Positions 47,612-47,783 of a DNA stretch of 64,000 nt are shown piece after piece. The position numbers and the translations under genes are program-made. This DNA is from a phage: NCBI GenBank assembly GCA_014913405.1, contig GCA_014913405.1_3931.1; one strand, written 5' to 3'. The notes under the pieces were generated by a model. That model did no database searches and was not told the DNA's origin. It worked only from the letters and a program-made list of their open reading frames with translations. The stretch's first letter is position 1. Every line of letters starts with the position of its first letter.

Positions 47612-47783
47612 TAAGATGATAAACAACGGTCTGGTAATTATCTTTGTAGATAAGTTATTAAGCTTACCTGTGAGTATGCGACCACAAAGGGTGAATGGGT
47701 AAATTCTAGATTTAAACCCAAAAAGGCACATCGCTACAGACCTTAAGCAAGTCTGGGTAGCTTATCTACAAAGATAATTTAAT

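What the first reader, a model, noticed from the sequence alone, without database searches (positions are those of the whole stretch)
47636..47779. Perfect 19-bp inverted repeat flanking 106 bp inside the tRNA cluster
AATTATCTTTGTAGATAAG (47636-47654) and its exact reverse complement CTTATCTACAAAGATAATT (47761-47779) enclose 106 bp that have no tRNA fold but contain an internal hairpin (GGGTAAATTCTAGATTTAAACCC). A 19-bp perfect stem is far beyond chance in a 64-kb window. It could be a small structured RNA, a processing site for the polycistronic tRNA precursor, or the ends of a miniature inserted element.
Basis: seen in the sequence. Interest (0 to 1): 0.6.

Follow-up and report, generated by a model that had tools for sequence, protein, structure and literature searches.

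The report
Conserved knotted RNA before phage tRNA-Lys
The perfect inverted repeat is the closing stem of a previously undescribed, evolutionarily conserved ~145-nucleotide folded RNA that FelixO1-like phages always encode just in front of their lysine tRNA, inside an array of tRNAs and tRNA-mimicking "Y-like" RNAs next to a Ro60-like RNA-binding protein gene.

Summary
In detail: 47636-47654 and 47761-47779 are exact reverse complements. About 1.7e-4 such repeats are expected by chance, and the window has only this one.

It is neither a mobile element nor a DNA palindrome. It is the lower part of a 23-bp helix (P1) that closes a ~145-nt RNA on the + strand. That RNA has a 5-bp hairpin (P4), a pseudoknot between the strand after P1 and the P4 loop, and a GRGUAKGC motif.

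A model built only on one sequence variant finds the window's variant and homologues in distant Ounavirinae-like phages. The homologues end 0-11 nt before tRNA-Lys(UUU). P1 sequences differ completely between lineages, yet 21-23 bp are kept: 27 of 33 core pairs show compensatory changes.

Rfam has no match, and no paper in the searchable library describes it.

The gene 45044-46459 upstream folds like Ro60. Four repeated modules, 46789-47638, share a bulged helix. The last one is a circularly permuted tRNA mimic like bacterial YrlA Y RNAs.

Function is inferred, not shown. Most likely the RNA is a stable non-coding RNA cut from the tRNA precursor by RNase P and by RNase III at the P1 stalk.

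The parts
47636..47779 (+). The structured RNA as a whole (P1 to P1), followed by a 4-nt tail TAAT (47780-47783) up to tRNA-Lys
   Evidence: Model R1, built only on the type-B variant, hits 47634-47783 at 61.5 bits, E 2e-16. MFE -49.2 kcal/mol, z -4.96. No Rfam family matches.
47636..47658 (+). P1 5' strand (23 nt); its first 19 nt are the left arm of the reported repeat
   Evidence: All 21 counted P1 pairs show changes on both sides across lineages, with 96.5% of cells paired.
47757..47779 (+). P1 3' strand (23 nt); its last 19 nt are the right arm of the reported repeat
47662..47666 (+). Pseudoknot strand GCTTA in the junction after P1; it pairs with TAAGC in the P4 loop
   Evidence: Covaries between lineages: GCUUA/UAAGC, GCUAA/UUAGC, UGCUUA/UAAGCA, UUGCUU/AAGCAA, UUGUUCA/UGAACAA. 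One pair takes AU, UA and CG forms and another takes CG and UA. L046 is an exception.
47667..47690 (+). P2 hairpin (CCTGTG ... CACAAAGG) carrying the conserved motif GAGTATGC at 47672-47679
   Evidence: Fold. The motif GRGUAKGC sits at the same relative place in six of seven lineages. The stem itself is not conserved in type B.
47697..47719 (+).
   Evidence: In type B the equivalent P3 is longer, and its basal 7-bp helix has 3 pairs with double changes.
47737..47755 (+). P4 hairpin CAGAC-CTTAAGCAA-GTCTG; the 9-nt loop has consensus C-Y-U-N-N-N-C-A-A, and G47756 is a bulge before P1
   Evidence: 4 of 5 P4 pairs show changes on both sides and 100% of cells are paired. Five of the nine loop positions are invariant (loop positions 1, 3, 7, 8, 9), as is the closing C-G pair.
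47784..47859 (+). tRNA-Lys (UUU), invariably the next gene after the structured RNA
   Evidence: The same adjacency holds in L042, L043, L045, L046 and L047.
47499..47638 (+). Module M4, a YrlA-like permuted tRNA mimic. Closing helices: TTAC 47500-03 with GTAA 47634-37, and AGACCGT 47507-13 with ACGGTCT 47626-32. V arm 47538-54, T arm 47559-75. Acceptor-like stem 47576-82 with 47587-93, closed by the loop AGAT. D arm 47596-47610. Its 3' end overlaps the 5' end of P1 by 2 nt.
   Evidence: The acceptor-like helix has 3 of 7 pairs with double changes and is 99% paired. Model R2 finds full-length homologues next to Ro60-like genes in distant phages.
46789..46869 (+). Module M1: a short Y-like module with the same bulged closing helix (C-AGA-AGACC ... 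GGTCT-G-G) and the ACAGCAA motif, but no tRNA domain
   Evidence: R2 42.8 bits, E 1.7e-8.
46956..47027 (+). Module M2: short Y-like module
   Evidence: R2 51.6 bits, E 1.7e-10.
47412..47493 (+). Module M3: short Y-like module
   Evidence: R2 29 bits, E 2.3e-5 with filters off.
45044..46459 (+). Ro60-like protein gene (Pfam DUF2828 + DUF7788; helical-repeat ring plus vWA domain with DVSSSM), same strand, 1.2 kb upstream
   Evidence: Pfam. PHROG 850 'RNA-binding protein'. AlphaFold2 model pLDDT 89.8. The ten best PDB matches are all Ro60/TROVE, E 1e-8 to 1e-6, TM 0.35-0.61 and 0.52-0.61 for nine of them. The Bas63 gp130 homologue is described as Ro60-like.
46568..46597 (+). Sigma-70-like promoter (TTGACA-18-TAAAGT) ahead of the first tRNA; probable start of the transcript that carries the element
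   Evidence: Consensus scan only. The next strong promoter-like site is at 48033-48061, beyond tRNA-Ile.

Best explanation
The inverted repeat is the 23-bp closing helix (P1) of a ~145-nt non-coding RNA transcribed from the + strand as part of the phage's polycistronic tRNA/Y-like-RNA precursor.

Shown here. The RNA has a conserved architecture: P1; a junction strand that forms a pseudoknot with the 9-nt loop of hairpin P4; P4 placed directly against the 3' strand of P1; and a variable central domain carrying a GRGUAKGC motif. It is under selection as RNA in several genera of Ounavirinae-like phages, and it always lies immediately 5' of tRNA-Lys(UUU).

Inferred. Its 3' end is made by RNase P when that enzyme cuts the 5' end of tRNA-Lys, 4 nt past P1. 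The long, nearly perfect P1 keeps its length but not its sequence, so it probably acts as a sequence-independent double-stranded 'processing stalk', like the RNase III stalks around 16S and 23S rRNA. Cutting it would separate the upstream Y-like RNAs from the downstream tRNAs. It would also release the compact knotted core as a stable small RNA.

Most speculative. That core then acts through its shape, by binding a protein, within the RNA-handling module formed by the Ro60-like protein and its Y-like RNAs, rather than by base-pairing with a target.
For: Real and non-random.

An RNA fold on the + strand:
- z = -4.96.
- Model R1 scores 172-185 bits on the + strand of type-B loci against 22-28 bits on the - strand.
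- Many G-U pairs in P1 would be A-C mismatches on the other strand.

Conservation with covariation:
- R1 was trained only on type B. It finds type A in the window (61.5 bits), Yersinia phage P778 (L042, 40 bits), L043 (36.5 bits) and L045 (23 bits).
- L046 and L047 show the same architecture on inspection.
- On the hand-registered core, 92.9% of cells pair, against 32-41% when partners are slid. 27 of 33 pairs change on both sides, and 0 of 500 shuffles reach this.
- The pseudoknot covaries.
- The GRGUAKGC motif is at the same place in 6 of 7 lineages.

Fixed position before tRNA-Lys(UUU), even though the upstream neighbour differs (module M4 here, tRNA-Ala in L042 and L045-L047).

Not coding: the 85-codon minus-strand ORF is not kept in L004 or L042.

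Context: a Ro60-like gene and YrlA-like and short modules on the same strand.

Processing-stalk idea: P1 is 21-23 bp in every lineage despite complete sequence turnover. RNase III needing about two helical turns of double-stranded RNA, and the rRNA stalk design, are textbook knowledge, not tested here.
Against: - There are no expression or end-mapping data, so the existence of a discrete stable RNA and any RNase III cut are inferred.
- The core alignment used for the covariation counts was registered by hand on the proposed structure, which inflates the percentage paired. Many sequences are close relatives.
- One lineage (L046) lacks the junction partner of the pseudoknot.
- The central domain (P2/P3) differs between variants and its pairing is poorly supported.
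- Nothing ties this RNA specifically to the Ro60-like protein. It lacks the bulged helix shared by modules M1-M4, and it lacks the CGAA-type motif of Y RNAs.
- R1 found it in none of 75 more distant Ro60-like loci.
- Bas63 gp130 alone counters the ppl defence without any phage RNA.
- The RNA is dispensable for plaque formation. Phage SP116 lost it together with tRNA-Lys, and the Bas63 tRNA-region genes are mostly non-essential.
Confidence: 0.55

Rival explanations
1. A purely cis-acting leader of tRNA-Lys(UUU). The structure exists only to direct or time maturation of the downstream tRNA sub-cluster, through RNase III entry, positioning of RNase P, or insulation from misfolding with the upstream tRNA-like RNA. 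The excised piece has no function of its own.
For: The element is invariably within 0-11 nt of tRNA-Lys(UUU) while its upstream neighbour varies. It was co-deleted with tRNA-Lys in SP116. P1 keeps its length but not its sequence. It is absent from distant Ro60-like phages.
Against: A simple processing stalk would not need a covarying pseudoknot, invariant P4 loop positions and a conserved 8-nt motif. The other 25 tRNAs of the cluster do without such a leader. In L055, tRNA-Lys(UUU) follows another tRNA directly, with no such element.
Confidence: 0.25
2. A genuine Y RNA: a direct ligand of the phage Ro60-like protein that gates or tethers it, as bacterial YrlB or Yrn RNAs do.
For: The 5' and 3' ends form a long stem around a large internal region, on the same strand and 1.2 kb from a Ro60-like gene. 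These are criteria used for Y RNAs. Two type-B variants contain GCCGAAG, which fits GNCGAAN0-1G.
Against: The CGAA-like motif is not conserved: it is GCCGAUG in most type B and GCGACC in type A. P1 has no conserved bulged helix, whereas modules M1-M4 share one and are the better candidates. The RNA is not found beside 75 distant Ro60-like genes, while the YrlA-like model is found beside 9 of them.
Confidence: 0.13
3. A self-cleaving ribozyme or a ligand-sensing RNA embedded in the tRNA operon.
For: It has a compact pseudoknotted core with a few invariant nucleotides. Small ribozymes are known next to phage tRNAs (my own knowledge of HDV-like 'theta' ribozymes; not checked here).
Against: No Rfam ribozyme or riboswitch family matches, even at E <= 10. 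The central domain is too variable for a conserved active site or binding pocket. RNase P already supplies the adjacent cut.
Confidence: 0.04
4. A DNA-level feature: terminal inverted repeats of a miniature mobile element, a cruciform or protein-binding palindrome, or an intrinsic terminator.
For: A perfect 19-bp inverted repeat encloses about 100 bp. Homing endonuclease genes are inserted elsewhere in this tRNA region in relatives.
Against: There is a single copy. No target-site duplication was seen in the flanks, though this was not examined systematically. In the related genomes inspected, none lacks exactly this segment; the deletions seen have other end points. The arms turn over completely between lineages while pairing is kept, with strand-specific G-U pairs. 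There is no G+C-rich stem with a U tract.
Confidence: 0.03

Closest known systems
Phage T4 'species 1' and 'species 2' stable RNAs (rnaC, rnaD) in the T4 tRNA gene cluster
   Same: These are small (119-139 nt) structured RNAs of unknown function. They are encoded between tRNA genes, co-transcribed with them and released by tRNA-processing enzymes (annotation; fold).
   Different: There is no detectable homology: model R1 finds nothing in the T4 region. T4 rnaC ends in a T-arm-like hairpin, which this RNA lacks. T4 is not known to carry a Ro60-like gene next to the cluster (my knowledge, not tested).
RNase III processing stalks flanking 16S and 23S rRNA
   Same: A long, nearly perfect helix formed by sequences on either side of a structured RNA inside a polycistronic non-coding transcript that also contains tRNAs. 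The helix length here (21-23 bp) suits RNase III.
   Different: The enclosed RNA is about 100 nt rather than 1.5-2.9 kb. Cleavage is not demonstrated. The comparison rests on textbook knowledge.
Bacterial and phage Y RNAs (YrlA, YrlB, Yrn1; phiLo Yrl1 and Yrl2) that bind Ro60
   Same: Terminal stem plus a large internal region, and a gene close to and on the same strand as a Ro60-type protein gene. The neighbouring module M4 shares YrlA's V-T-acceptor-D order and a 7-bp acceptor-like stem.
   Different: The hairpin RNA has no T or D arm, no conserved CGAA-type motif and no bulged helix. The protein here is of the DUF2828 type, not annotated as TROVE. Even M4 carries CAGAAGACC in place of GNCGAA.

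Membership tests
Y RNA / YrlA-YrlB (applied to the hairpin RNA 47636-47779) | 5' and 3' ends pair to form a stem that encloses a large internal loop or domain | tested here: met
   23-bp P1 encloses 98 nt.
Y RNA / YrlA-YrlB (applied to the hairpin RNA 47636-47779) | Conserved Ro60-binding motif (GNCGAAN0-1G or CGAA, or a bulged conserved helix) near the 5' strand | tested here: not met
   Only two type-B variants have GCCGAAG; the others have GCCGAUG or GCGACC. P1 has no conserved bulge.
Y RNA / YrlA-YrlB (applied to the hairpin RNA 47636-47779) | Encoded within about 4 kb of a Ro60 orthologue, on the same strand | tested here: met
   The Ro60-like gene is at 45044-46459 (+), and the RNA starts 1.2 kb downstream. 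However, R1 finds it beside 0 of 75 distant Ro60-like genes.
Y RNA / YrlA-YrlB (applied to the hairpin RNA 47636-47779) | Physical binding to the Ro60 protein | not testable with these tools
   Needs immunoprecipitation or gel-shift experiments.
YrlA-type tRNA-mimic Y RNA (applied to the neighbouring module M4, 47499-47638) | V, T, acceptor-like and D stem-loops in that order between the two strands of a terminal stem, with tRNA-like T and D loops | tested here: met
   Structure on alignment A4 is 97.1% paired. The acceptor-like helix covaries in 3 of 7 pairs. T loop is TTCGATT and D loop AATGGTA. The order matches Chen et al. 2014.
YrlA-type tRNA-mimic Y RNA (applied to the neighbouring module M4, 47499-47638) | GNCGAAN0-1G motif near the 5' end | tested here: not met
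   The conserved 5' motif is CAGAAGACC followed by ACAGCAA.
YrlA-type tRNA-mimic Y RNA (applied to the neighbouring module M4, 47499-47638) | Adjacent to and on the same strand as a Ro60-type gene in many genomes | tested here: met
   R2 hits in L044-L048 and in 9 of 75 distant IMG/VR Ro60-like loci; all 12 hits are on the gene's strand.
RNase III processing stalk | About 20 bp or more of nearly perfect double-stranded RNA formed by the flanks of the RNA to be released | tested here: met
   P1 is 23 bp here and 21-23 bp in six other lineages, with 0-3 mismatches.
RNase III processing stalk | Staggered double cleavage by RNase III in vivo or in vitro | not testable with these tools
   Needs end mapping in wild-type and rnc hosts.
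Miniature inverted-repeat mobile element | Several copies, target-site duplication, and empty sites in related genomes | tested here: not met
   Single copy. The deletions seen in relatives do not coincide with the repeat ends. The arms covary as RNA. Target-site duplication was not examined systematically.
tRNA, or tRNA with an intron | Cloverleaf with acceptor, D, anticodon and T arms recognised by tRNA finders | tested here: not met
   ARAGORN and the Rfam tRNA model do not call 47636-47779.
Intrinsic transcription terminator | G+C-rich hairpin followed by a run of U | tested here: not met
   The scan reports no site here. The base of P1 is A/U-rich and is followed by TAATGG.
T4 rnaC / rnaD stable RNAs | Sequence or structure homology to the T4 RNAs | tested here: not met
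   R1 finds no match in the T4 tRNA region, even at E <= 10.

The most novel reading that the evidence does not exclude
The knotted RNA is a new class of phage effector RNA functionally coupled to the phage's own tRNA-Lys(UUU). It would act as a shape-specific decoy or guard that protects or licenses this tRNA, or the Ro60-like/Y-RNA particle, against host RNA-targeting immunity such as anticodon nucleases that attack tRNA-Lys. In that case its fixed position before tRNA-Lys would reflect function rather than history.
Probability: 0.1. Interest if true: 0.85.

Novelty: new variant of a known kind. Interest (0 to 1): 0.62.

Why it matters
FelixO1-like phages are widely used for typing and therapy, yet this stretch is unannotated in their records or annotated as spurious small ORFs.

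The analysis shows that the 'tRNA cluster' is really a mixed array of four kinds of gene:
- tRNAs;
- a new pseudoknotted RNA family tied to tRNA-Lys(UUU);
- four Y-like modules, one of them a circularly permuted tRNA mimic that encodes its own CCA end in some lineages;
- a tmRNA-like tag element.

All of these lie downstream of a Ro60-like protein already shown to counter a bacterial defence. That study (PhageMaP preprint) could only guess that 'some tRNA genes may be Y RNAs'. The coordinates and structures given here make the guess directly testable. They also give concrete RNAs to knock out, pull down and probe.

If the hairpin RNA proves to be a stable protein-binding RNA, it adds a new fold to the small set of phage-encoded structured RNAs.

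Tried and rejected
1. tRNA with an intron. Some GenBank records (ASO1B, REP5-7) carry a tRNAscan-SE call 'tRNA-Thr-GGT, 129 nt' just upstream. It picks up the V and T arms of module M4. Its 'anticodon' loop varies, including 6-nt loops, so it does not decode.

2. Alternative pairing AAGATGAT (47613-20) with ATTATCTT (47638-45), which would compete with P1 like an attenuator. It is not conserved in the Moogle group.

3. P4 as a mimic of the tRNA-Lys anticodon arm. In the window the stems are alike (CAGA...UCUG) and both loops start CUU. In L042 and L045 the stems are unrelated.

4. Protein-coding on the minus strand (annotated in Alf5 and UAB_Phi87). The ORF is not kept in L004 or L042.

5. Homology to T4 rnaC or rnaD: none.

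6. Mobile element, terminator or DNA palindrome: rejected as described under the rival explanations.

7. P4 plus the CTAC/GTAG extension as a copy of the bulged helix of modules M1-M4. The similarity is limited to AGAC/GUCU and is not conserved in L042-L047.

8. Link to the DUF5681 gene. It co-occurs with the hairpin RNA in Ounavirinae-like loci. But L055 has DUF5681 and no hairpin before tRNA-Lys, so the link may be only phylogenetic.

9. Literature searches for Felixounavirus transcriptomes or small RNAs found nothing usable.

10. A third, broader covariance model was not built, because MAFFT could not be trusted to align the divergent full-length sequences.

Full report
**1. The observation**

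The window carries AATTATCTTTGTAGATAAG at 47636-47654 and its exact reverse complement at 47761-47779, 106 nt apart. The complementarity runs on to 22 nt at 95%. With two G-U pairs it reaches 23 RNA base pairs (47636-47658 with 47757-47779).

From base composition, about 1.7e-4 perfect 19-bp inverted repeats within 300 nt are expected in 64 kb. The window has exactly one. The arm has no further copy within three mismatches.

The element lies between tRNA-Asp (47277-47354) and tRNA-Lys-UUU (47784-47859), in a cluster of 26 tRNA genes, all on the + strand. ARAGORN does not call it. Rfam 15 does not either, even at E <= 10 on the 436-nt spacer alone. The + strand folds at -49.2 kcal/mol, z = -4.96.

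**2. Whose genome, and is the element conserved?**

The spacer matches 252 phage records, nearly all Ounavirinae (Felixounavirus, Mooglevirus, Suspvirus). So the window is a FelixO1-like phage.

Aligning relatives shows two variants of the interior. Type A is the window's variant; type B occurs in Mooglevirus, Suspvirus and some Felixounavirus. Both are bounded by the same kind of long stem.

The two variants are mosaic with respect to their flanks. L003, L008, L009 and L013 have window-like flanks but a type-B interior. This points to recombination rather than transposition.

In the subset of related genomes I inspected (about 40 loci, guided by the coverage table), none lacks exactly the repeat-bounded segment.
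- SP116 lost window 47579-47826 through recombination between two T-arm sequences. That removed the element together with most of tRNA-Lys.
- ESCO56 kept the element but lost the modules upstream.

**3. Structure**

RNAalifold on 14 type-B sequences gives:
- a 23-bp P1;
- a weak P2;
- a P3 whose basal helix has three pairs with compensatory double changes;
- a P4 hairpin stacked against the 3' strand of P1, with AU/GC covariation.

The window's type A has the same layout:
- P1: 47636-58 with 47757-79;
- P2: 47667-90;
- P3: 47697-47719;
- P4: 47737-55.

A covariance model built only from type B (R1) gave these hits:

| Source | Coordinates | Bits | E-value |
|---|---|---|---|
| Window (type A) | 47634-47783 | 61.5 | 2e-16 |
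| Yersinia phage vB_YenM_P778 (L042) | 10493-10660 | 40.3 | 7e-10 |
| L043 | 9277-9426 | 36.5 | about 1e-8 |
| L045 | 9250-9397 | 23 | 3e-4 |

L046 and L047 show the same architecture on inspection. In all of them the element ends 0-11 nt before tRNA-Lys(UUU). The upstream neighbour varies: it is module M4 here and tRNA-Ala in L042 and L045-L047.

**4. Covariation**

I registered the core (21 P1 pairs, 7 candidate pseudoknot pairs, 5 P4 pairs) by hand for 15 distinct sequences from seven lineages. MAFFT left the alignment ungapped. The counting tool gave:

| Measure | Result |
|---|---|
| Cells forming a standard pair | 92.9% |
| Same, with partners slid 1-3 columns | 32-41% |
| Pairs with changes on both sides | 27 of 33 |
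| P1 pairs with changes on both sides | 21 of 21 |
| P4 pairs with changes on both sides | 4 of 5 |
| Shuffles reaching the observed values | 0 of 500 |

The junction after P1 pairs with the P4 loop, and this pairing covaries:
- GCUUA/UAAGC in type A;
- GCUAA/UUAGC in type B and L042;
- UGCUUA/UAAGCA in L043;
- UUGCUU/AAGCAA in L045;
- UUGUUCA/UGAACAA in L047.

One position takes AU, UA and CG forms. L046 is an exception: its complement to the loop sits elsewhere.

The P4 loop is C-Y-U-N-N-N-C-A-A, with five invariant positions. An 8-nt motif, GRGUAKGC (47672-79 here), recurs at the same relative place in six of seven lineages.

Two caveats apply. The registration was made with the structure in mind, and many sequences are related. 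The independent points are the model-based detection across variants and the complete sequence turnover of P1 at constant length.

**5. RNA, not DNA**

On type-B loci R1 scores 172-185 bits on the + strand and 22-28 bits on the - strand. P1 is rich in G-U pairs, which would be A-C mismatches in the complementary transcript and mean nothing for a DNA palindrome.

The 85-codon minus-strand ORF that some records annotate here is not conserved. There is no terminator-like G+C-rich stem with a U tract.

**6. Context**

The gene 45044-46459, on the same strand just before the cluster, matches Pfam DUF2828 + DUF7788 and PHROG 850 'RNA-binding protein'. An AlphaFold2 model from 40 homologues has pLDDT 89.8. 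Its ten best PDB matches are all Ro60/TROVE proteins, including the Thermus phage phiLo Ro60. E-values are 1e-8 to 1e-6. TM-scores are 0.52-0.61 for nine of them and 0.35 for the Deinococcus protein.

The PhageMaP preprint reached the same structural conclusion for the homologue Bas63 gp130. It showed that gp130 counters the 'ppl' defence, and it speculated that some 'tRNA genes' downstream might be Y RNAs, without identifying any.

Immediately upstream of the hairpin RNA I find such a candidate, module M4 (47499-47638):
- a terminal bulged helix: TTAC-AGA-AGACCGT with ACGGTCT-G-GTAA;
- a V stem-loop;
- a T arm (GAGGG TTCGATT CCTTC);
- a 7-bp acceptor-like stem closed by a 4-nt loop (ACTCGGC-AGAT-GTCGAGT);
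- a D arm (GTGT AATGGTA GCAC).

This is a circularly permuted tRNA with the V-T-acceptor-D order that defines bacterial YrlA RNAs. The acceptor-like stem covaries in 3 of 7 pairs and is 99% paired. The Moogle group encodes GCCA after its 3' strand, and L045 and L047 encode ACCA. That recalls M. smegmatis YrlA, which is cut by RNase P and receives CCA.

Model R2 finds full-length homologues beside Ro60-like genes in L044-L048 (57-84 bits). It also finds them in 9 of 75 distant IMG/VR loci, with all 12 hits on the gene's strand.

Three shorter modules in the window share the terminal helix and the ACAGCAA motif but have no tRNA domain:
- M1, 46789-46869;
- M2, 46956-47027;
- M3, 47412-47493.

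Between the four modules the flanking pairs covary (TTAC/GTAA, TGAC/GTCA, GAGC/GCTC; CGT/ACG against CAA/TTG).

These modules differ from described YrlA RNAs in carrying CAGAAGACC instead of GNCGAA. I therefore call them YrlA-like, not YrlA.

**7. What the hairpin RNA most likely does**

Shown: it is a conserved, independently folding RNA domain tied to tRNA-Lys(UUU).

Inferred:
- It lies inside a transcript that probably starts at the promoter-like site 46568-46597. The next strong promoter-like site is at 48033-48061.
- RNase P cutting at the 5' end of tRNA-Lys would leave it with a 4-nt 3' tail.
- P1 keeps 21-23 bp of near-perfect helix while its sequence changes entirely. That pattern is expected for sequence-independent recognition of double-stranded RNA, as by RNase III on the rRNA processing stalks. 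It is not the pattern of a sequence-specific protein site.
- The conserved knot (P1 top, P4, pseudoknot, GRGUAKGC) has no conserved single-stranded 'seed'. This argues for a shape-recognised RNA rather than a base-pairing RNA.

Whether the excised core works in trans, or the whole element is only a maturation device for tRNA-Lys, cannot be decided here. I give 0.55 to the stable-RNA reading and 0.25 to the purely cis-acting one.

A direct role as a Ro60 ligand is less likely (0.13), for these reasons:
- The element lacks the motif shared by M1-M4.
- It is absent beside 75 distant Ro60-like genes.
- gp130 works against ppl without phage RNAs.

**8. Comparison and novelty**

The nearest precedents are the T4 species 1 and 2 RNAs. 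These are stable RNAs of unknown function inside a phage tRNA cluster, and they show no homology to this RNA. Other precedents are RNase III stalks and Y RNAs.

The RNA is absent from Rfam 15. It is not described in any paper the searchable library returned. It is either unannotated or covered by spurious ORFs in GenBank records.

I rate it a new variant of a known kind: a new fold family among phage tRNA-operon RNAs. Interest is moderately high, and much of it comes from the Ro60/Y-like context that the element helped to expose.

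Noticed in passing
window 47499-47638 (also 46789-46869, 46956-47027, 47412-47493): There are four repeated modules with a conserved bulged terminal helix (C-AGA-AGACC...GGTCT-G-G) and an ACAGCAA motif. The fourth encloses a circularly permuted tRNA (V arm, T arm, 7-bp acceptor-like stem closed by a loop, D arm), which is the YrlA Y-RNA topology. Some lineages encode GCCA or ACCA after the acceptor 3' strand. Several GenBank records mis-annotate it as a 129-nt 'tRNA-Thr-GGT'.
   Followed up: yes
window 45044-46459 (+): The gene just upstream of the tRNA cluster (DUF2828 + DUF7788) is predicted to fold like Ro60 (TROVE ring plus vWA domain). Homologues are widespread in phages. 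In all 8 distant homologue loci that I scanned for tRNAs, the gene sits directly upstream of a tRNA cluster. The Bas63 homologue gp130 is reported to counter the ppl defence on its own.
   Followed up: yes
window 48111-48146 (element about 48062-48263, behind the promoter-like site 48033-48061): This is a tmRNA-like tag reading frame: GCA AAC GAC AAT GTT TTT CTG GCA GTA GCT TGA TAG = ANDNVFLAVA**. Its stop codons lie in a hairpin loop, as in tmRNA helix 5. It is conserved in Mooglevirus with synonymous changes. ARAGORN calls no tmRNA and the Rfam tmRNA hits are weak (15.7 and 29.2 bits), so there is no obvious tRNA-like domain. Related sequences occur in 338 of 5426 E. coli genomes, many on plasmids. 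In one lambdoid prophage the element lies between the Q antiterminator and holin genes and reads ANEEMYLAVA* (L130 2510-2542).
   Followed up: partly
window 44591-44962 (+): A DUF5681 protein with a basic N-terminus (KGQFKKGQSGNPSGRPKGSRNK) is always encoded directly upstream of the Ro60-like gene in Ounavirinae-like loci. By tblastn it is detectable in only 11 of the 88 loci searched, which were nearly all Ro60-like loci. It might be an RNA-binding partner.
   Followed up: partly
window 47636-47779 compared with L003, L008, L009, L013: The interior of the hairpin RNA exists as two diverged variants, A and B, which are mosaic relative to the flanks. Some Felixounavirus genomes with window-like flanks carry the Mooglevirus-type interior. 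This implies cassette-like exchange by recombination within P1.
   Followed up: partly
L012 (Salmonella phage SP116) 1201-1236; window 47579-47826: SP116 carries a deletion created by recombination between the T arm of the permuted tRNA mimic and the T arm of tRNA-Lys. The result is a chimeric T-arm gene, and the hairpin RNA and tRNA-Lys are lost. So both are dispensable for propagation.
   Followed up: partly
window 47355-47411 and 48831-48921: Further conserved hairpins lie in spacers of the tRNA cluster: GAGAGGGCTATTTAGCCCCTC and CCTTAAAGAG...CTTTAAAGG after tRNA-Asp, and a 26-nt imperfect inverted repeat before tRNA-Leu. Their role is unknown; they may be additional processing signals.
   Followed up: no
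L055 10094-10206: In a more distant Ounavirinae-like contig that lacks the hairpin RNA before tRNA-Lys, a 113-nt element with a ~21-bp terminal stem lies between tRNA-Ser and tRNA-Ile. R1 scores it at only 17 bits, from the stem alone. It may be an analogous long-stalk RNA.
   Followed up: no
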